Assembly (NCBI GenBank): GCA_001782235.1
Contig: MFOC01000007.1
Location: 86,799 to 150,798 of the forward strand
Direction: 5' to 3'
Length of the DNA: 64,000 bases
From: Candidatus Levybacteria bacterium RIFCSPHIGHO2_02_FULL_40_18
Lineage (GTDB): Bacteria > Patescibacteriota > Microgenomatia > Levybacterales > GWA1-39-11
Each line of letters begins with the position of its first letter. Within the stretch, counting starts at the first letter, position 1. The notes beneath the pieces were generated by a model. That model searched no databases. It saw only the letters and a list, made by a program, of their open reading frames with translations, and was not told the origin of the DNA. The position numbers and the translations under genes are program-made. Of this stretch, positions 3,005-57,385 are shown one piece after another.

Positions 3005-3628
3005 TTAGTCATTTGTCTTTGCAATTACCCTTACCGGAGCAGCGTCAGCTTGGAATTTTGCAGGAAGAGCTATCACTTCAAACTCCCCGGCATTTAATAA
3101 CTGATCAAGATTTGTTAAGTTTTCAAGAATGGTAATGTTATGTCCCAGCAGGATTTTATGAGTAAGCCAGGGCTTATCATAATCCGGCCCGAGCATATCC
3201 ATTCCAACCATTTTTACTTCTAACTCACCCATTCTCGTTGCAAAATCTTCTTTGAGTTCTGGGTAATCCTTAAAGTAATCGCTTGTTCGGTATTTGCTTC
3301 CAAAGCCTGTGAATAAAAGAACTACTGATCCCTTCTCAATTTCAATACCTTCTAATACTGACTCATCAATATTCATTTTCCCCCTAACATCAATTAGCAC
3401 GCCTTTGCCAAAAAAACGCTCTGGGGATATTTCGTCCATTTTCTTACCGCCTTCAATCATATGCAAAGGTGCGTCCATATGCGTCCCTACGTGCATTACG
3501 GAGGTAATTTTATGGTCGTTAAAGGTATCCTTCTCGATATGTGCGACTTGTTCAAGAGTTGCTTTGGGGTCTCCCGGATAAACCGGCATATCAGATGTGA
3601 ATGTGTGTGTAAGATCAATATACTTCAT
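3005..3628 (-). CDS. Cyclase-family protein (kynurenine formamidase-like)
   Basis: 207 aa; metal motif HVGTHMDAPLHM typical of the putative cyclase / arylformamidase family. Confidence 0.7.
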   Translation of the reverse strand: MKYIDLTHTFTSDMPVYPGDPKATLEQVAHIEKDTFNDHKITSVMHVGTHMDAPLHMIEGGKKMDEISPERFFGKGVLIDVRGKMNIDESVLEGIEIEKGSVVLLFTGFGSKYRTSDYFKDYPELKEDFATRMGELEVKMVGMDMLGPDYDKPWLTHKILLGHNITILENLTNLDQLLNAGEFEVIALPAKFQADAAPVRVIAKTND

Positions 3629-6388: not shown

Positions 6389-6460
6389 CTCCTCCGGGAG
6401 GATTCGAACCTCCGACCAATCGCTTAACAGGCGAGTGCTCTACCACTGAGCTACAGAGGA
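6389..6460 (-). tRNA. tRNA-Asn (anticodon GTT)
   Basis: Hand-folded: TCCTCTG/CGGAGGA acceptor, GCTCAGTGGTAGAGC D-arm, CTGTTAA anticodon loop, GGAGGTTCGAATCCTCC T-arm; no encoded CCA. Confidence 0.9.
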
Positions 6461-43168: not shown

Positions 43169-45673
43169 ATGAAATTACAAGGACTTTCGCAAAAAGTATT
43201 TTTGGATCGCTATTCTTTAAAAGATAAGAAGGGGAAGGCTCTCGAAAAAACCCCTGACCGCATGTGGAGGAGAGTGGCCGCGGCTGTTGCCGGTGTTGAG
43301 ACAACTTCCCAAAATAAGAAGCGCTGGGAAAAGGAATTTTATTCTGCGATGCAGGATTTTAAATATGTTCCCGGAGGAAGAATTTTGGCAGGCGCTGGGA
43401 CCGGTTTTGAAGTTACCTACTATAATTGCTTTGTAATTCCATCCCCCAAAGACTCACGTGAAGGGATTCTTGAAACCCTCAAGCAAATGGTAGAGATTAT
43501 GGCTCGCGGTGGGGGAGTCGGAATAAATCTTTCTTCCTTGCGACCGCGCGGGTTTCGCGTTGAAAAAGTAAACGGCTTCTCTTCAGGTCCCTGCAATTGG
43601 GCAGAACTTTTCTCCGTTGCAACAAAAGACATTATTCAACAGGGAGGTAGTCGCCGAGGGGCATTAATGCTTATGCTCTGGGATTGGCATCCTGATATTG
43701 AAGAATTTATTACTGTTAAACAAGATCTTTCCCGTATAAATGGCGCAAACCTTTCTGTCTGTGTTTCAGATTCTTTCATGGAGCAGGTTGAGCGCGATGG
43801 AGATTGGGACCTTGTCTTTCCGGACAGAAGAGATCCCGAGTATGATACAAAATGGGACGGAGATATATACACATGGCGTGCAATGGGCAAAAAGGTTGTA
43901 AAACATAAGACTATCAAAGCGCGCTACATGTGGGATCTAATTGCCGAGGCCGCCTGGAGATCTGCAGAGCCGGGAGTTGTCTTCATGGAACGATACAATA
44001 AACTGCACAATAATTGGTATTGGAACCGAATTAACTGCGTAAATCCATGCGGAGAGGAGGGCTTGCCGCCGTGGGGAGTTTGCAATCTTGGATCAATTAA
44101 TCTTTCAGCTCTTGTTCACGGCGATAATATTGACAAGAAGGGAAAGTTTGATTTTTCTCTACTTAAGAAAGTCACTCGGGCCGCTGTCCGATTTCAAGAC
44201 AATGTTATTGAAATGGATCCTTATATTTTTGATGGGATCAAAAAGACCCAATATGAAGGAGAAAGAAGAATAGGTCTTGGGACAATGGGTCTTGGAGATG
44301 CTTTGATTAAGCTTCATTTAAGATATGGGTCACCTGAATCCCTTCAGTTTATCGATCGCGTTTATAGAATTATAAGAGACGAGGCGTATAGGACCTCAGT
44401 TGAAATTGGCGCTGAGAAAGGATCTTTTGGAAAGTTTGACAAAAAACTTTATCCTCAGGGCAAGTTCATACAACTGTTGCCTGCTGATATTCAGAATGGA
44501 ATTAAGAAAAAAGGCATTAGAAATTCCATACTTCTTATGCAAGCGCCAACCGGGTCAACATCTCTTCTTGTTAATACAACCTCTGGAATTGAGCCGGTTT
44601 TTGAATTCGAATTTGTGAGGCGCGATAGAATAGGCGAGCATGTTGTCCGCCACTACTTATATGAACAATGGTATAAAAAACACGGCAAGGATATTGAGGC
44701 AGGCAAAATTGAGCGGCCCGATTTCTTTGTGTCGGCGAATGATCTGACGCCAGAAGATCATGTCAGGGCTCAGGCAATAATTCAAAAATATGTTGATGCA
44801 TCTATTTCAAAAACAGTTAATGCGCCTAATGCCCACACAGTTGAAGAAGTAAAAAAGCTTTACAACATGGCATACAAACTTGGTTGCAAAGGCGTTACAT
44901 ATATGAGAGAAGGATCCCGCGCAGGGGTCTTGGAACGCATAGATGATAAGAAGAAGGAAGAAGCTCCAAAGGTTGAAGTAAAAGCCCCACCGGTTACAAA
45001 GAGGCCGCCTGTTATGTATGGCTTGACTTACAAAACCCAAACGCCACTTGGAGACGCATTCATTACTATCAATAAAGATGAAGGAGGAAATCCCTTTGAA
45101 GCCTTTATAACCATTGGCAAATCAGGTTCTGATGTTGCTGCCATGACTGATGCTTTGGGCCGAATGATTTCCCTGACTCTTCGCCTTCAGAGTCCTATAC
45201 CGGCACGAGAACGCGTCAGACAGATTGTCGCACAGCTTTCGGGAATCGGCGGCATGAGAACAATCGGATTTGGAGAAAACAGGGTTCGGTCTGTGCCTGA
45301 TGCTGTAGCAAAAGTTTTAGCAGAGGAATTTGGATTTTCAGTCAACGGGATAGTTCGTGATCTAAAGACTTCGGAAAATACCGTAACAAACGGCCAGGTA
45401 GTTTCGGTATCGAATGGCGCAAACGGAAACGGAATTGTGGCAAAAACAAATGGCATCGTCACAAGTGCCAATGGTATAGCAAGTCCTGCGACTGCGCTAA
45501 ATGAATCGCAAAGCGAGGCGGCAGAGCAGACAGTTGTTATGGAACAATTAAGTATTGGGAGTGAGACCTCGACGCATAGCGCATTTGATTTTTGTCCCTC
45601 ATGCGGAGCAGCAACGCTCGCGCATGAAGAGGGATGCAAAAAATGCTATAGCTGCGGCTATAGTGAATGTTAA
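43169..45673 (+). CDS. nrdJ: Class II (adenosylcobalamin-dependent) ribonucleotide reductase
   Basis: 834 aa; ..GGGVGINLSSLRPRG.., ..NPCGEEGLPPWGVCNLGSINL.., ..APTGSTSLL..; C-terminal Cys4 finger CPSCG..CKKCYSCG. Confidence 0.9.
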   Translation: MKLQGLSQKVFLDRYSLKDKKGKALEKTPDRMWRRVAAAVAGVETTSQNKKRWEKEFYSAMQDFKYVPGGRILAGAGTGFEVTYYNCFVIPSPKDSREGILETLKQMVEIMARGGGVGINLSSLRPRGFRVEKVNGFSSGPCNWAELFSVATKDIIQQGGSRRGALMLMLWDWHPDIEEFITVKQDLSRINGANLSVCVSDSFMEQVERDGDWDLVFPDRRDPEYDTKWDGDIYTWRAMGKKVVKHKTIKARYMWDLIAEAAWRSAEPGVVFMERYNKLHNNWYWNRINCVNPCGEEGLPPWGVCNLGSINLSALVHGDNIDKKGKFDFSLLKKVTRAAVRFQDNVIEMDPYIFDGIKKTQYEGERRIGLGTMGLGDALIKLHLRYGSPESLQFIDRVYRIIRDEAYRTSVEIGAEKGSFGKFDKKLYPQGKFIQLLPADIQNGIKKKGIRNSILLMQAPTGSTSLLVNTTSGIEPVFEFEFVRRDRIGEHVVRHYLYEQWYKKHGKDIEAGKIERPDFFVSANDLTPEDHVRAQAIIQKYVDASISKTVNAPNAHTVEEVKKLYNMAYKLGCKGVTYMREGSRAGVLERIDDKKKEEAPKVEVKAPPVTKRPPVMYGLTYKTQTPLGDAFITINKDEGGNPFEAFITIGKSGSDVAAMTDALGRMISLTLRLQSPIPARERVRQIVAQLSGIGGMRTIGFGENRVRSVPDAVAKVLAEEFGFSVNGIVRDLKTSENTVTNGQVVSVSNGANGNGIVAKTNGIVTSANGIASPATALNESQSEAAEQTVVMEQLSIGSETSTHSAFDFCPSCGAATLAHEEGCKKCYSCGYSEC

Positions 45674-45699
45674 GTTAGCAATTAGCAATTAGTTTCAAA

Positions 45700-45838
45700 T
45701 AAGAGTATATATTTGGTAATCGCCGTGAAAGTCGGCGGAACTGCCGGTACTGTAATATCCAGAAAACAATATATACTTTCATCCCCGAGCAGGGTTAAGC
45801 GAAGAAGAATTCCTCTCGGGTTATCGAGAGGTTTTTTT
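45700..45838 (+). promoter_or_regulatory. Candidate cis-regulatory RNA leader (cobalamin-riboswitch-like core + terminator/antiterminator) ahead of the adenosyltransferase gene
   Basis: Closing helix AGTATATATT(45703-12)/AATATATACT(45768-77). Inside, CGCCG-UGAAAGU-CGGCG and ..CUGCCGGUACUGUAA resemble the GGUG..AA.UCC hairpin and CCCGCCACUGUAA core of B12 elements. CCCGAG (45784-89) can pair with CUCGGG in the terminator. Confidence 0.3.
45812..45838 (+). terminator. Intrinsic terminator
   Basis: CCTCTCG-GGTTAT-CGAGAGG followed by TTTTTTT. Confidence 0.75.
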
Positions 45839-45856
45839 GTGAGCAATAGTTGAACT

Positions 45857-46408
45857 ATGCCTATATATACAAAGACAGGGGATCGCGGAAAAACATCGCT
45901 CTTTTCAGGAAAAAGAGTCTGGAAGCATGATCTCCGTGTCGAAGCATACGGAACCGTTGACGAGCTAAATACTATTTTGGGGCTAGCGCTTGCAGCGCTT
46001 CCTCACAAGAAAAATAAACAAATAGCATATCTTCGTGACTTAATTTTAGAGGTCCAAAAATCCCTTTTTTACATTGGTTCTTATTTTGCCGACCTTCCTG
46101 ACACTCTCGAAGAGATAGATTTGATAGGTAAAACTAATCGGTTCGAAAAAGAAATCGATCTAATGACGAACAAGATGCCAAAGCTTGCGAACTTTATTTT
46201 TCTTGATGGCGGATTGGCCGGGAGTTTTCTCCAGAATGCCCGGGCAATTGCCAGACGGGCAGAAAGGCAAATTGTGAAACTTTCTAAAAAAGAGAAGATA
46301 GATGTGAGACTACTTAAATATATAAACAGGCTCTCCGATTTGTTTTTCACTATGGCGCGTTACGCAAATCATATTGAAGGGAAAAAAGAAAGGATTTGGG
46401 AAAGATAA
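45857..46408 (+). CDS. pduO: ATP:cob(I)alamin adenosyltransferase, PduO type
   Basis: MPIYTKTGDRGKTSLFSGKRV.KHDLRVEAYGTVDELN..; 183 aa. Confidence 0.9.
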   Translation: MPIYTKTGDRGKTSLFSGKRVWKHDLRVEAYGTVDELNTILGLALAALPHKKNKQIAYLRDLILEVQKSLFYIGSYFADLPDTLEEIDLIGKTNRFEKEIDLMTNKMPKLANFIFLDGGLAGSFLQNARAIARRAERQIVKLSKKEKIDVRLLKYINRLSDLFFTMARYANHIEGKKERIWER

Positions 46409-46409
46409 T

Positions 46410-47471
46410 ATGCCAGCAGTTGCCGAAAGAGAAAGGTACGAAATAGTTGGATCTAATGCTTTTAATTTAGAGTACCAAGAAGGTTTACATTCAGAGTCCT
46501 CGATTAAAGAAGATATAATTTCATACTTAGGTGAATATCGTTTTGAAATTCCTAAATACGAATATAGCTTGTTTTTCTCAAGGAATCATAGTGGGACTTC
46601 AATCTTCACCTCTGATGGCGAGACGATGCTTGAAAAATCTCGCAGGGCAATAGCAAAGAAAAAATTACGGCAAGACCCAACGCATCGGGAAGAAAACGAA
46701 ACATTAGGATTAGTAAACCTTGAGAGTCAATTAAAACAGGCAAAAGAAGGCGATACTATTTTCTGGGGGAGTCCGCCTGGGCCAGAAGATGAGGGATATG
46801 GAAACTATGGATTTATTTATAAAGGAAGAATACAGAGTGGGAAAATTCTGATGGCGGCATTGAGAGTCGATAATCCAACAATAGAACAATATAATCGGGC
46901 AATGACCACTTTGACCGGAGCAAGATTTGATCTTCAACATGCCGATGATTTTTTAAGATCCCCGCGCGTTGTAAATAGAGAAGTCTCTGATTCATATATA
47001 GAGCACGTTCTAAAGCAAGGGTTCTCTTATTCTCCAAATCCTGAAAAACAGAAGGATTTTGAGGGGGCCATAAGAATACTTGGGCCTCTTATTGATCGTA
47101 CTATTTTTGCAATACAAAATGGAACCCGCGAAGAAAAACAAAGAACTTTTTATGCTCTTGAAAATTCTGCAATAGAGCTTTGCAACAGTGGTCATGGAAC
47201 TCTTCTTCGCGGGGGATTAGATTATATTATTTTAACACGCAGTTTCGAGCCACCAGTAGCCCGGGGTAGCTGCGGTTCAACCGCAAGTAACATGCTCTTT
47301 TCAGGAGAATCGAGTATAAACGGTATATTAATGCCTGATAAATATGGAGATCGCGAGTTTGAATGTCCTAATTGTCACCAGATAAATGTTCGTCCTATGG
47401 ATCAGCTTCTTGAAAAGTGCCAGCATTGTGGGAGCAGCGCAGTTAGCTGTGAGAGCGATGAATCTTCTTGA
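46410..47471 (+). CDS. Hypothetical protein with a C-terminal zinc ribbon
   Basis: Start taken at ATG 46410, 1 nt after the pduO stop; C-term FECPNCHQINV..CQHCGSS; no family recognised. Confidence 0.5.
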   Translation: MPAVAERERYEIVGSNAFNLEYQEGLHSESSIKEDIISYLGEYRFEIPKYEYSLFFSRNHSGTSIFTSDGETMLEKSRRAIAKKKLRQDPTHREENETLGLVNLESQLKQAKEGDTIFWGSPPGPEDEGYGNYGFIYKGRIQSGKILMAALRVDNPTIEQYNRAMTTLTGARFDLQHADDFLRSPRVVNREVSDSYIEHVLKQGFSYSPNPEKQKDFEGAIRILGPLIDRTIFAIQNGTREEKQRTFYALENSAIELCNSGHGTLLRGGLDYIILTRSFEPPVARGSCGSTASNMLFSGESSINGILMPDKYGDREFECPNCHQINVRPMDQLLEKCQHCGSSAVSCESDESS

Positions 47472-48486: not shown

Positions 48487-48501
48487 CCGCGTTTGACGCG
48501 G
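48487..48501 (-). terminator. Hairpin immediately after ssrA
   Basis: Minus strand CCGCGT-CAA-ACGCGG, followed by a second palindrome GCTTCG-CA-CGAAGC. Confidence 0.4.
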
Positions 48502-48854
48502 TGGAGATGGGGGGCTTTGAGCCCCCGTCCAAAAAAGCATCTATAAAAACATCTACAAGCTTATTCAATTATTTATTGTCATCATGCAAACTCCAATTGA
48601 AAGGATTGAACATGACTAAGATTTAAATTGTTCGAACAAAATCTAAATCGGAACTTTGTCTATATCCAAACTTTGTTTATGCCCATATCTGATCGTTTGG
48701 AAAAATCTAGATATGAACACCAGTTTAAGCTACTGCGTAGCTGTAGGCCGGACTAACATTTCTGTTAGCATTTATTTTTGATACATTTTTACGATTAGTA
48801 TCATTATCGGCTTGCAGTTTTTAAAGAGCAATTCTGTCGATGCAATGCATCCCC
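48500..48854 (-). ncRNA. ssrA: tmRNA (SsrA)
   Basis: 5' GGGGATGCATTGC.., 3' ..GGACGGGGGCTCAAAGCCCCCCATCTCCACC; internal tag frame GCT AAC AGA AAT GTT AGT CCG GCC TAC AGC TAC GCA GTA GCT TAA = ANRNVSPAYSYAVA*. Confidence 0.9.
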
Positions 48855-54198: not shown

Positions 54199-54269
54199 TA
54201 GGCCCGGAAGGAGTCGGACCTTCGTGTCGACTTTATAAGAGTCGTGTCCTACCGTTGAACGACGGGCCT
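54199..54269 (-). tRNA. tRNA-Ile (anticodon TAT), atypical
   Basis: AGGCCCG/CGGGCCT acceptor (A1:U72), D-arm GTTC-AACGGTA-GGAC, CGACT-CTTATAA-AGTCG, 4-nt variable loop, T-arm GAAGG-TCCGACT-CCTTC (C at position 55). Confidence 0.65.
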
Positions 54270-57300: not shown

Positions 57301-57385
57301 CGGAGGGTACAGGATTCGAACCTGTGAAGGGATTGCTCCCTCGAGTTTTCAAGACTCGCGCAATTGGCCTCTATGCGAACCCTCC
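57301..57385 (-). tRNA. tRNA-Ser (anticodon TGA)
   Basis: GGAGGGT/ACCCTCC acceptor, CGAGT-CTTGAAA-ACTCG, variable arm GGGAGCAATCCC, ACAGG-TTCGAAT-CCTGT. Confidence 0.9.

What the first reader, a model, noticed from the sequence alone, without database searches (positions are those of the whole stretch)
45700..45838. Possible cobalamin-type regulatory leader between the B12-dependent RNR and the cob(I)alamin adenosyltransferase
The 183-nt gap contains four elements:
- A 10-bp closing helix, 45703-45712 with 45768-45777.
- A hairpin CGCCG-UGAAAGU-CGGCG that resembles the conserved GGUG.(A)AA.UCC hairpin of cobalamin riboswitches.
- The string CUGCCGGUACUGUAA, which resembles CCCGCCACUGUAA.
- A clean intrinsic terminator (45812-45838) whose 5' arm can instead pair with CCCGAG at 45784-45789, giving an antiterminator.
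The genomic context is apt, with B12-using nrdJ upstream and pduO downstream.
Two caveats apply. The core is much shorter than a full cobalamin aptamer, and I see no convincing B12 box. It may simply be the nrdJ terminator region.
Basis: partly seen in the sequence, partly recalled or inferred. Interest (0 to 1): 0.5.

Follow-up and report, generated by a model that had tools for sequence, protein, structure and literature searches.

The report
Class-II cobalamin riboswitch before pduO
The spacer between the B12-dependent ribonucleotide reductase gene and the B12 adenosyltransferase gene of this Levybacteria (CPR) genome holds a genuine vitamin-B12-sensing RNA switch of an already known class, which most likely stops transcription before the adenosyltransferase gene when B12 is plentiful.

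Summary
Rfam's AdoCbl-II model (RF01689) matches window 45704-45777 end to end at 39.8 bits, above its gathering score of 36.5 (E 5e-6 for the whole window). A model built here finds the aptamer and a downstream hairpin in 29 matches, all in Levybacteria-type loci. Covariation supports P1/P3, P4, P5 and P13: 95.9% of cells pair, against 28-39% when partner columns are slid.

The expression platform is resolved. A weak hairpin, P13 (45783-45794), carries an invariant loop, CGAGCA. That loop is complementary, with one bulged A, to aptamer loop L5 (UGCCG, 45742-45746), as in the known cobalamin kissing loop. The same P13 nucleotides can instead pair with the terminator's 5' arm (45784-94 with 45811-20). 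This antiterminator covaries across genomes. The terminator is 45812-45831 plus U7.

Most likely logic: cobalamin locks the kissing loop and P13, the terminator forms, and pduO and the next gene are switched off. The aptamer starts about 28 nt after the nrdJ stop codon, so it is probably operon-internal.

The aptamer lacks the J1/3 T-loop of Cbl-IIa. It resembles the AdoCbl-binding Cbl-IIb type, so AdoCbl is the predicted ligand, which is untested. Verdict: a new member of a known kind, of modest interest. The more novel lead is an uncharacterised co-regulated protein with no PDB fold match.

The parts
45702..45715 (+). P1/P3 5' strand. A continuous helix with bulged U45712. The J1/3 internal loop of the Rfam consensus is deleted.
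   Evidence: Rfam alignment, model positions 10-15 deleted. All 9 modelled pairs show double changes in 25 relatives.
45716..45720 (+). J3/4 (GUAAU), junction strand of the four-way junction.
   Evidence: Matches the consensus GGGAAAu region. GG.AA is invariant in the type A relatives.
45721..45737 (+). P4 (CGCCG/CGGCG) with the L4 T-loop (UGAAAGU).
   Evidence: 4 of 5 pairs covary, 99.2% of cells paired.
45740..45748 (+). P5 (A45740-U45748, C45741-G45747) with L5 UGCCG (45742-45746), the aptamer half of the kissing loop.
   Evidence: Both P5 pairs covary (AC/GU, UG/CA, GG/CC, AG/CU, UA/UA). L5 is invariant apart from AGCCG in one lineage.
45750..45762 (+). P6 (CUG/CAG) with L6 (UAAUAUC). There is no hairpin extension.
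   Evidence: Some relatives carry a hairpin insertion here (L002, L091, most type B copies).
45763..45766 (+). J6/3 (AAAA). CAGAAAAC is invariant in type A copies.
   Evidence: It differs from the Rfam consensus GAGcGCC.
45767..45779 (+). P3/P1 3' strand.
45780..45782 (+). J1/13 linker. It is 5 nt if counted from the Rfam P1 end at 45777.
   Evidence: The linker is similarly short in most relatives and carries a 36-nt insertion in L081. The wild-type env8HyCbl linker is 7 nt and its length matters for function (PMC5028336).
45783..45794 (+). P13 hairpin: stem CCC/GGG (45783-85 with 45792-94) and loop L13 CGAGCA (45786-91). Proposed kissing loop: U45742-A45791, G45743-C45790, C45744-G45789, A45788 bulged, C45745-G45787, G45746-C45786.
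   Evidence: The P13 stem covaries at 3 of 3 pairs (CCC/GGG, UCC/GGA, GCU/AGC, CUU/AAG, UUC/GAA). L13 is invariant while the stems change. There is one compensatory U-A to A-U change in the kissing loop, in L086, L090 and L006.
45784..45794 (+). 5' strand of the antiterminator. It uses the same nucleotides as P13/L13: CCCGAG(C)AGGG.
   Evidence: This is the MFE fold of transcripts ending at 45820-45826, at -13.4 to -14.1 kcal/mol, against P13 alone at -2.9 to -4.2.
45811..45820 (+). 3' strand of the antiterminator (UCCUCUCGGG). It overlaps the terminator's 5' arm.
   Evidence: Covarying classes are CCCGAG:CUCGGG, UCCGAG:CUCGGA, UUCGAG:CUCGAA, CUCGAG:CUCGAG and CCGGG:CCCGG. Cognate duplexes average -8.2 kcal/mol against -3.1 for shuffled partners. 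Cognate beats non-cognate pairing, with 0 of 20,000 permutations as good.
45812..45838 (+). Intrinsic terminator: stem 45812-19 with 45824-31, loop GUUA, then U7 at 45832-38.
   Evidence: An equivalent terminator is present in 23 of 25 related instances.
43169..45673 (+). nrdJ (AdoCbl-dependent ribonucleotide reductase). It is the upstream gene, and its stop codon lies about 28 nt before P1.
45857..46408 (+). PduO-type ATP:cob(I)alamin adenosyltransferase, the first regulated gene.
   Evidence: The N-terminus MPIYTK.GD.G is conserved.
46374..47471 (+). Uncharacterised protein with SPPG and GSCG motifs and a C-terminal zinc ribbon. It is the second gene under the switch. The annotated start in P0121 is 12 codons later.
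   Evidence: In other genomes it has its own cobalamin riboswitch.

Best explanation
Window 45702-45838 is a complete class-II cobalamin riboswitch (Rfam AdoCbl-II, RF01689) of a lineage found here only in Candidatus Levybacteria-type (CPR) loci. It most likely works as a transcription-terminating OFF switch.

Aptamer (shown by model match and covariation): 45702-45779 is a four-way junction of P3-P6 closed by a long P1/P3 helix.

Bound state (inferred): when a cobalamin is bound, aptamer loop L5 (UGCCG) forms a kissing loop with the loop of the downstream hairpin P13 (CGAGCA, one bulged A). This locks an otherwise weak 3-bp hairpin. Its nucleotides are then unavailable, so the terminator at 45812-45838 forms and RNA polymerase stops before pduO.

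Unbound state (inferred): without ligand, the P13 nucleotides (45784-94) pair with the terminator's 5' arm (45811-20) as soon as that arm is transcribed. This antiterminator lets transcription continue into pduO and the unknown gene that follows.

Operon position (inferred): P1 begins about 28 nt after the nrdJ stop codon, and 0-11 nt after it in several relatives. The switch therefore probably sits inside an nrdR-nrdJ-pduO transcript. The B12-activating enzyme would then be made only when the gene for its client enzyme is transcribed and cofactor is short.

Ligand (inferred from architecture and physiology only): probably adenosylcobalamin, because the aptamer lacks the J1/3 T-loop.
For: Family membership:
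- Rfam hit 39.8 bits against a gathering score of 36.5, model positions 1-81 of 81, E 5.3e-6 for the window and 2.9e-8 locally.
- The same family hits relatives at 37-57 bits in the same position.
- Custom model R1 (aptamer plus P13) finds 29 matches, all in Levybacteria-type loci.

Covariation:
- 95.9% of 633 cells pair, against 28-39% when slid, and 0 of 500 shuffles reach the observed values.
- Pairs with double changes: P1/P3 9 of 9, P4 4 of 5, P5 2 of 2, P13 3 of 3.

Kissing loop:
- L5 and L13 are invariant while the adjacent stems vary.
- All five pairs form in 18 of 18 curated rows.
- There is one compensatory U-A to A-U change.
- A bulged nucleotide on the L13 side fits the rule reported for cobalamin kissing loops (PMC5028336).
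- The same L5 and L13 sequences recur in a platform with no terminator, where P13 abuts the AUG (L172).

Antiterminator and terminator:
- The antiterminator is 89% paired against 29-53% when slid. The two P13-derived pairs covary.
- Cognate duplexes beat non-cognate ones in a permutation test, and average -8.2 against -3.1 kcal/mol for shuffled partners.
- The energy order P13 (-2.9 to -4.2), then antiterminator (-7.5 for 6 bp, -13.4 to -14.1 extended), then P13 plus terminator (-15.2 to -15.9) fits the published requirement that the antiterminator be more stable than P13 without the kissing loop (PMC10653944).
- Terminators are present in 23 of 25 instances.

Context:
- nrdJ lies upstream and pduO downstream.
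- In L005 the same switch precedes DUF4430-DUF6580-pduO.
- 16 of 17 type A copies follow an nrdJ stop codon, six of them within about 28 nt.
Against: - The Rfam score is only 3.3 bits above the threshold, and two model pairs plus J1/3 are deleted.
- Four of the five kissing-loop pairs never vary. The single compensatory change occurs in one lineage (L086, L090, L006), so the kissing loop rests mainly on invariance, complementarity and analogy.
- The A4 alignment was fitted to the model's nested structure, which inflates the paired percentages for those helices. The kissing loop and antiterminator were not in the model.
- The curated alignment A6 left out atypical instances: L002-A and L086-A use other antiterminator registers, while L164 and L006-A lack a clear terminator.
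- No promoter was located, so co-transcription with nrdJ is inferred. L091 shows the switch can also sit behind a different upstream region.
- In the window the pduO AUG lies 19 nt beyond the U-tract with no evident SD, so translation control is unclear.
- No binding, probing or RNA-seq data exist, and ligand identity is inferred from architecture only.
Confidence: 0.8

Rival explanations
1. The region is only the intrinsic terminator of nrdJ, and the aptamer-like features are a chance resemblance in AT-rich spacer DNA.
For: The Rfam score is close to the threshold. The P1 helix is a low-complexity AU repeat. Some relatives (L004, L083, L088, L096) have nrdJ-pduO spacers with no aptamer.
Against: The match is full-length at E 5e-6. 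Homologous copies exist in more than 20 loci with compensatory changes in every helix. The loop sequences are invariant.
Confidence: 0.02
2. The riboswitch is real but is selective for hydroxocobalamin or methylcobalamin, like the crystallised class-IIa env8HyCbl RNA, or it is promiscuous. It would then not be AdoCbl-selective.
For: The best Rfam family is AdoCbl-II, whose structurally characterised member binds HyCbl (PMC5028336). P6 in the window has only a loop, as in Cbl-IIa, not the short hairpin described for Cbl-IIb (PMC7367189). Class-II members span a broad selectivity spectrum (PMC6158498).
Against: The J1/3 T-loop that buttresses the pocket in Cbl-IIa is deleted here. J1/3-less or paired members are described as the AdoCbl-binding Cbl-IIb type. 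Repressing the adenosyltransferase with its end product AdoCbl, the cofactor of the adjacent NrdJ, is the simpler regulatory logic (inference).
Confidence: 0.3
3. The switch is a normal 5' leader with its own promoter inside the 3' end of nrdJ, and is not operon-internal.
For: Promoters of CPR bacteria are poorly defined, and the consensus scan could miss one. In L091 the same switch is not preceded by nrdJ, and several relatives have spacers of 70-215 nt before the aptamer.
Against: No sigma-70-like site was found on the + strand after 42969. The gap from stop codon to P1 is about 28 nt here and about 0-11 nt in L005, L170, L081 and L002. No terminator lies between nrdJ and the aptamer.
Confidence: 0.25
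4. The switch activates expression (ON) or acts mainly on translation rather than by termination.
For: An activating corrinoid riboswitch is known (PMC10653944). In many relatives the purine-rich 3' arm of the terminator lies 7-8 U before the AUG and could double as the SD. In L172 the P13 hairpin abuts the AUG with no terminator.
Against: In the window P13 (45783-94) does not overlap the terminator (45812-31). It overlaps the antiterminator, which is the repressing topology. The window's AUG is 25 nt from the GAGAGG arm, too far for that arm to serve as an SD.
Confidence: 0.05

Closest known systems
AdoCbl-II / AdoCbl-variant riboswitch family (Rfam RF01689; class Cbl-IIa, env8HyCbl, PDB 4FRN)
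   Same: Four-way junction P3-P6, L4 T-loop GUGAAA.UC, a small P6, no P2 arm, a short J1/13 linker, and an L5-L13 kissing loop with an unpaired purine on the L13 side. It scores above the family's gathering threshold (PMC5028336).
   Different: The J1/3 T-loop is deleted. J6/3 is AAAA instead of the GcGCC consensus. The kissing loop has one bulged A and five Watson-Crick pairs, whereas the AdoCbl-variant alignment is reported to strictly conserve two unpaired purines. L13 is not the ribosome-binding site, and the output is a terminator rather than RBS occlusion. The host is a CPR bacterium rather than a marine one.
Cbl-IIb riboswitches (J1/3-less class II; the Enterococcus faecalis eut riboswitch is the example cited in PMC6158498)
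   Same: A class-II core with a paired or mismatched J1/3 segment. From my own knowledge, the E. faecalis element also lies between genes of a B12-dependent pathway, next to an adenosyltransferase gene.
   Different: The window's P6 carries only a 7-nt loop, not the short hairpin extension described for Cbl-IIb. Several relatives do have one. AdoCbl selectivity has not been measured here. No Cbl-IIb structure is available for comparison.
Priestia megaterium metE corrinoid riboswitch (transcriptional, repressing; PMC10653944)
   Same: The logic is the same: the kissing loop stabilises P13, P13 formation frees the terminator, and in the unbound state P13 nucleotides pair with the terminator's 5' arm as an antiterminator that is more stable than P13 alone.
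   Different: There the antiterminator uses the 3' side of the P13 stem and L5 is UCCCG. Here the antiterminator uses the 5' strand, four loop nucleotides and the 3' strand of P13, so the kissing loop and the antiterminator compete for the same loop bases. The position here is after a coding gene rather than in a 5' leader.

Membership tests
Rfam AdoCbl-II (RF01689), cobalamin clan CL00101 | Covariance-model score at or above the curated gathering score, over the full model | tested here: met
   39.8 bits against 36.5, model positions 1-81 of 81, E 5.3e-6.
Rfam AdoCbl-II (RF01689), cobalamin clan CL00101 | Four-way junction helices P3, P4, P5 and P6 maintained by compensatory changes | tested here: met
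   Pairs with double changes: P1/P3 9 of 9, P4 4 of 5, P5 2 of 2, P6 1 of 3. Overall 95.9% paired against 28-39% when slid.
Rfam AdoCbl-II (RF01689), cobalamin clan CL00101 | L4 T-loop consensus GUGAAAUUC | tested here: met
   GUGAAAGUC at 45725-45733 aligns to the consensus with posterior marks '*'.
Class-II cobalamin riboswitch (as opposed to class I) | No P2 loop-stem-loop arm and no large P6 extension (PMC7367189) | tested here: met
   The aptamer is 78 nt. P1 runs directly into P3, and L6 is a 7-nt loop.
All cobalamin riboswitches | L5-L13 kissing loop presented on a stem-loop, with at least one unpaired nucleotide (PMC5028336) | tested here: met
   UGCCG pairs with CG(A)GCA. All five pairs form in 18 of 18 curated rows, with one compensatory change. 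The P13 stem covaries at 3 of 3 pairs. Four of the five kissing-loop pairs are invariant, so the support is mostly conservation.
All cobalamin riboswitches | Binds a cobalamin | not testable with these tools
   Needs in-line probing, ITC or a reporter assay.
Cbl-IIa (env8HyCbl type, HyCbl/MeCbl-selective) | Bulged J1/3 T-loop that contacts J6/3 and buttresses the pocket | tested here: not met
   Model positions 10-15 are deleted. Only a single bulged U remains between P1 and P3.
Cbl-IIa (env8HyCbl type, HyCbl/MeCbl-selective) | Two unpaired purines in L13 at a fixed position | tested here: not met
   The proposed pairing leaves one unpaired A (A45788).
Cbl-IIb (AdoCbl-selective class II) | Short mismatched or paired J1/3 segment | tested here: met
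   Continuous P1-P3 helix with one bulged U.
Cbl-IIb (AdoCbl-selective class II) | Small hairpin extension of P6 | tested here: not met
   The window has only a 7-nt L6. L002, L091 and most type B copies do carry a hairpin there.
Cbl-IIb (AdoCbl-selective class II) | Selectivity for adenosylcobalamin | not testable with these tools
   Inferred only from the architecture and from the NrdJ/PduO context.
Kissing-loop-controlled transcriptional OFF platform (P. megaterium metE type) | The terminator does not overlap P13. The antiterminator is built from P13 nucleotides plus the terminator's 5' arm and is more stable than P13 alone. | tested here: met
   P13 is 45783-94, the antiterminator 45784-94 with 45811-20, and the terminator 45812-38. 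Energies are -2.9 to -4.2 for P13, -7.5 to -14.1 for the antiterminator and -15.2 to -15.9 for P13 plus terminator.

The most novel reading that the evidence does not exclude
The riboswitch marks a CPR-specific B12 salvage regulon. Its second member is the uncharacterised protein of about 365 aa encoded after pduO (W-x-SPPG, GYG.YG and GSCG motifs, C-terminal zinc ribbon; 579 representative clusters; confident AF2 model with no PDB fold match). That protein could be a new cobalamin-processing or trafficking factor, for example the reductase or dealkylase that hands cob(I)alamin to PduO.

In addition, the two paralogous J1/3-less class-II aptamers found together in several Levybacteria genomes could discriminate between different corrinoid forms. 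Type A, with invariant J6/3 AGAAAAC, precedes pduO. Type B, with GGGUGAA..CCCC, precedes the unknown gene.
Probability: 0.25. Interest if true: 0.6.

Novelty: new member of a known kind. Interest (0 to 1): 0.3.

Why it matters
- It confirms that ultra-small CPR bacteria (Levybacteria) use a cobalamin riboswitch to ration the enzyme that activates the vitamin for their only ribonucleotide reductase visible in this window. From general knowledge these bacteria depend on scavenged B12.
- It gives a compact, phylogenetically well-supported example of a class-II cobalamin switch with a transcriptional output. The kissing loop and the antiterminator compete for the same loop nucleotides. PMC10653944 notes that how the kissing loop relates to terminator formation had been little studied.
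- Its position directly after the nrdJ stop codon suggests an operon-internal attenuator that couples cofactor activation to expression of the client enzyme.
- Practically, it flags an uncharacterised protein family as B12-related. That family is controlled by three different cobalamin riboswitch architectures.
- None of this changes how the riboswitch class itself is understood.

Tried and rejected
- A single-protein search for close PduO relatives in the genome collection found nothing. An alignment-based search was needed.
- Most of the 160 pduO loci fetched that way were from other phyla. They carried no match to model R1. Rfam also found no cobalamin riboswitch in L007-L019 and L035.
- P0003's contig could not be read because the sample file was too large.
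- The model-guided alignment A4 misplaced P13 in L081 (36-nt linker insertion), L092 and L004, and aligned type B P1 and J6/3 poorly. I therefore built the fixed-register alignment A6 for the switching elements.
- My automatic terminator definition mis-set the 5' arm for L005, L092, L170 and L090. This weakens their cognate duplex energies, so that test is conservative.
- A sigma-70 promoter between nrdJ and the aptamer was considered. None was found by the scan or by eye: TTAGCA at 45682-87 is 20 nt from the best -10-like TATATT, which lies inside P1.
- An in-frame GUG at 45839 was considered as an alternative pduO start and rejected, because a UGA follows four codons later.
- Literature searches for riboswitches in Patescibacteria/CPR returned nothing relevant.
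Full report
**The observation**

The 183-nt spacer (45674-45856) lies between two + strand ORFs. The upstream ORF (43169-45673) is an AdoCbl-dependent ribonucleotide reductase (TIGR02504, 560 bits). It is preceded by nrdR (42707-43156). The downstream ORF (45857-46408) is a PduO-type ATP:cob(I)alamin adenosyltransferase (TIGR00636, 158.9 bits).

- The closing helix is real. The perfect register is 45704-45713 with 45768-45777, one base off from the coordinates given. It extends to 45702-45779.
- The hairpin CGCCG-UGAAAGU-CGGCG is at 45721-45737.
- CUGCCGGUACUGUAA is at 45741-45755.
- The terminator is 45812-45831 plus U7.
- CCCGAG at 45784-89 is complementary to CUCGGG at 45815-20.

The spacer folds better than shuffles (z = -3.29).

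**What it is**

A scan of the whole window against Rfam 15 at gathering thresholds gives one riboswitch hit. It is AdoCbl-II (RF01689) at 45704-45777 on the + strand, at 39.8 bits against a gathering score of 36.5, covering model positions 1-81 of 81, with E = 5.3e-6.

It also shows what is unusual. Model positions 10-15, the J1/3 internal loop, are deleted. Two P3 pairs are lost. J6/3 reads AAAA instead of GcGCC. It is a class-II aptamer, and a minimal one.

**Relatives**

The closest PduO homologs are from Candidatus Levybacteria. The protein encoded after pduO is 100% identical to one from a Levybacteria MAG of the RIFCSPHIGHO2 set.

I fetched loci in two ways: through an alignment of PduO homologs, from both genomes and metagenomes, and through exact-protein look-ups. 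The gene order DUF5667 - nrdR - nrdJ - spacer - pduO - unknown - comF-like - tmRNA/smpB is conserved.

Rfam's AdoCbl-II model hits the same spacer in L001, L003, L081, L082, L086 and L093 at 39-57 bits.

I built a covariance model, R1, from 12 aptamers plus the hairpin that follows them. It finds 29 matches, all in Levybacteria-type loci and none in the other pduO loci fetched.

Two kinds of copy emerge:
- Type A, as in the window, sits before pduO and has an invariant CAGAAAAC.
- Type B, with GGGUGAA...CCCC, sits after pduO in front of the unknown gene.

Some relatives (L004, L083, L088, L096) have no type A copy.

**Covariation**

I counted pairs on the 25-row model-guided alignment, with the kissing loop written as a pseudoknot.
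- 95.9% of 633 cells form standard pairs, against 28-39% when the 3' partners are slid by 1-3 columns.
- No shuffle out of 500 reaches any of the five measures.
- Pairs with changes on both sides: P1/P3 9 of 9, P4 4 of 5, P5 2 of 2, P6 1 of 3, P13 3 of 3.

The nested helices were part of the model, so their paired percentages lean towards it. The slid controls and the variety of pair types (for example AC/GU, UG/CA, GG/CC, AG/CU and UA/UA for P5) make the conclusion safe.

**The expression platform**

A few nucleotides after P1, every copy has the motif yCC-CGAGCA-GGr. L081 has a 36-nt insertion before it. The motif is a 3-4 bp hairpin whose stem covaries (CCC/GGG, UCC/GGA, GCU/AGC, CUU/AAG, UUC/GAA) while its loop CGAGCA is invariant. 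In the window it is 45783-45794.

The loop is complementary to L5: 5'-UGCCG-3' pairs with 5'-CG(A)GCA-3', giving five Watson-Crick pairs and one bulged A. In the window the pairs are U45742-A45791, G45743-C45790, C45744-G45789, C45745-G45787 and G45746-C45786.

This is the L5-L13 kissing loop common to cobalamin riboswitches. Published work on env8HyCbl reports three things (PMC5028336):
- L13 must be presented on a stem-loop.
- At least one unpaired nucleotide on the L13 side is always present.
- The J1/13 linker is short, 7 nt in the wild type.

All three hold here.

The direct comparative evidence for the kissing loop is thinner than for the helices. Four pairs never vary. One shows a compensatory change, L5 AGCCG with L13 CGAGCU, in L086, L090 and L006, which form a single lineage. 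Supporting it, the same L5 and L13 sequences recur in a Roizmanbacteria leader (L172) whose P13 abuts the AUG with no terminator.

**The alternative pairing**

For nascent transcripts ending at 45820-45826, the minimum-free-energy fold pairs CCCGAG(C)AGGG (45784-94) with UCCUCUCGGG (45811-20), at -13.4 to -14.1 kcal/mol. That uses both strands and four loop bases of P13.

P13 alone is worth only -2.9 to -4.2 kcal/mol. Once the terminator's 3' arm is made, P13 plus terminator (-15.2 to -15.9) narrowly wins. This ordering is what the dissected P. megaterium metE switch requires: the antiterminator must be more stable than P13 unless the kissing loop locks P13 (PMC10653944).

Across genomes the antiterminator covaries: CCCGAG:CUCGGG, UCCGAG:CUCGGA, UUCGAG:CUCGAA (L085, L087), CUCGAG:CUCGAG (L167) and CCGGG:CCCGG (L092). 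In a fixed-register alignment of 18 copies the antiterminator is 89% paired, against 29-53% when slid. The two pairs that involve the P13 5' strand switch between C-G and U-A.

The same strand also covaries with the P13 3' strand. The bound state is 100% paired, against 32-54% when slid.

Cognate antiterminator duplexes average -8.2 kcal/mol, against -3.1 ± 2.2 for shuffled partners. They also beat non-cognate combinations, with 0 of 20,000 permutations as good. A terminator hairpin with a U-run is present in 23 of 25 copies.

**Mechanism and what is inferred**

Shown: family membership by model score, the secondary structure by covariation, and two mutually exclusive pairings of the P13 nucleotides by covariation.

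Inferred:
- Cobalamin binding stabilises the kissing loop and P13, so the terminator forms and pduO is switched off.
- The switch is transcribed from upstream through nrdJ.

On the second point, 16 of 17 type A copies follow an nrdJ stop codon. The gap to P1 is about 28 nt in the window and L082, and about 0-11 nt in L005, L170, L081 and L002. No sigma-70-like site or terminator intervenes. A promoter inside nrdJ cannot be excluded.

If the switch is operon-internal, the arrangement acts as an AND gate. The adenosyltransferase is made only when nrdR-nrdJ is transcribed and cofactor is short, and the riboswitch terminator doubles as the nrdJ terminator when B12 is replete.

**Ligand**

The classification summarised in PMC7367189 describes two class-II subtypes. 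Cbl-IIa has a bulged J1/3 T-loop and is selective for HyCbl or MeCbl. Cbl-IIb has a short mismatched or paired J1/3 and is selective for AdoCbl. PMC6158498 notes class-II members that lack J1/3, with the E. faecalis riboswitch as the example.

The window's aptamer has no J1/3, so it is not Cbl-IIa. It lacks the small P6 hairpin of Cbl-IIb, although some relatives have one. With NrdJ needing AdoCbl and PduO making it, product feedback by AdoCbl is the simplest reading. This is an inference, at roughly 0.55.

**What the switch controls**

Beyond pduO, the next gene (46374-47471) belongs to a family with invariant W-x-SPPG, GYG.YG and GSCG motifs and a C-terminal CxxC...CxxC ribbon. The family has 579 representative clusters and no Pfam or NCBIfam model.

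Different leaders precede it in different genomes:
- In the window it shares the type A switch with pduO.
- In L002, L004, L006, L083, L085, L086, L089 and L092 it has its own type B switch.
- In L171 it is preceded by a classical Cobalamin riboswitch (RF00174, 60.4 bits).
- In Roizmanbacteria it follows DUF4430-DUF6580 behind a Cbl-like leader.

DUF4430 is the domain found at the C-terminus of transcobalamins (PMC4350170). In L005 the type A switch itself precedes DUF4430-DUF6580-pduO.

**Verdict**

It is a new member of a known riboswitch class that a standard Rfam scan detects, so the novelty is modest.

Its particular features are a J1/3-less minimal class-II aptamer, a transcriptional platform in which the kissing loop and the antiterminator compete for the same loop bases, a position directly behind nrdJ, and a CPR host. 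These are variations on published themes. The most promising new lead is the uncharacterised protein family in its regulon.

Noticed in passing
window 46374-47471 (+); homologs in L081-L086, L164-L173: An uncharacterised protein family (about 350-430 aa; W-x-SPPG, GYG.YG and GSCG motifs; C-terminal zinc ribbon) always lies next to pduO or to DUF4430-DUF6580. Depending on the genome it is preceded by an AdoCbl-II riboswitch, a classical Cobalamin riboswitch, or a Cbl-like leader. It has 579 representative clusters and a confident AF2 model with no PDB fold match.
   Followed up: partly
L002 4033-4143, L004 4043-4129, L006 4037-4154, L083 2997-3120, L085 748-842, L086 4415-4537, L089 1260-1421, L092 3546-3656: A second, paralogous 'type B' class-II cobalamin riboswitch (GGGUGAA...CCCC core, often with a P6 hairpin extension) sits after pduO in many Levybacteria. 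It co-resides with the type A copy in L002, L006 and L086. The window has only type A.
   Followed up: partly
L164 2612-2760, L165 2625-2810, L167 2727-2850: The spacers between nrdJ and the riboswitch contain one to three extra degenerate copies of the DNA that encodes the nrdJ C-terminal tail (..CGYSEC*-like: TGCGG.TA....GA.TG.TAA). They look like tandem duplications of the gene's 3' end. The cause is unknown.
   Followed up: no
L083 about 3150-3175, L085 about 870-895, L091 about 800-830 and after the terminators of L091 and L006: A roughly 22-nt element (CCTTCGACAGCGGCTCAGGATAA and variants) is inserted in the loops of riboswitch terminators. It also appears as the hairpin GGCCGTTCGACAGGCTCAGGCC just downstream. 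It may be a small mobile or repeated element.
   Followed up: no
L001, L164, L167, L090, L006, L091 and type B copies, directly 3' of P13: A run of 6-7 U follows the P13 hairpin in many relatives but not in the window. It could be a pause site that gives time for kissing-loop docking, or it could make the locked P13 a first weak terminator. L164 has this run and no downstream terminator.
   Followed up: no
L003, L005, L086, L089, L090, L093 and others: terminator 3' arm to AUG: In many relatives the purine-rich 3' arm of the terminator (GGAG, GAAGGA) lies 7-8 U before the AUG. The terminator hairpin would then also hide the Shine-Dalgarno sequence, giving dual control. In the window the AUG is 19 nt beyond the U-tract and no SD is evident.
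   Followed up: partly
L005 2248-3529: In this relative the type A riboswitch controls DUF4430 (the domain found at the C-terminus of transcobalamins) and DUF6580 genes ahead of pduO. This may be a B12 uptake and binding module in CPR bacteria. The same pair sits next to the unknown gene in Roizmanbacteria (L172, L173).
   Followed up: partly
window 48499-48854 (-), 6389-6460 (-), 54199-54269 (-), 57301-57385 (-): A tmRNA (130 bits) lies close downstream of the operon, as in the related loci, and there are three tRNA genes.
   Followed up: no
window 42483-42511 (+): The best sigma-70-like promoter match in the neighbourhood (TTGACA-17-TACTAT, 10 of 12) lies about 200 nt upstream of nrdR. It is a candidate start of the nrdR-nrdJ(-pduO) transcript.
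   Followed up: no
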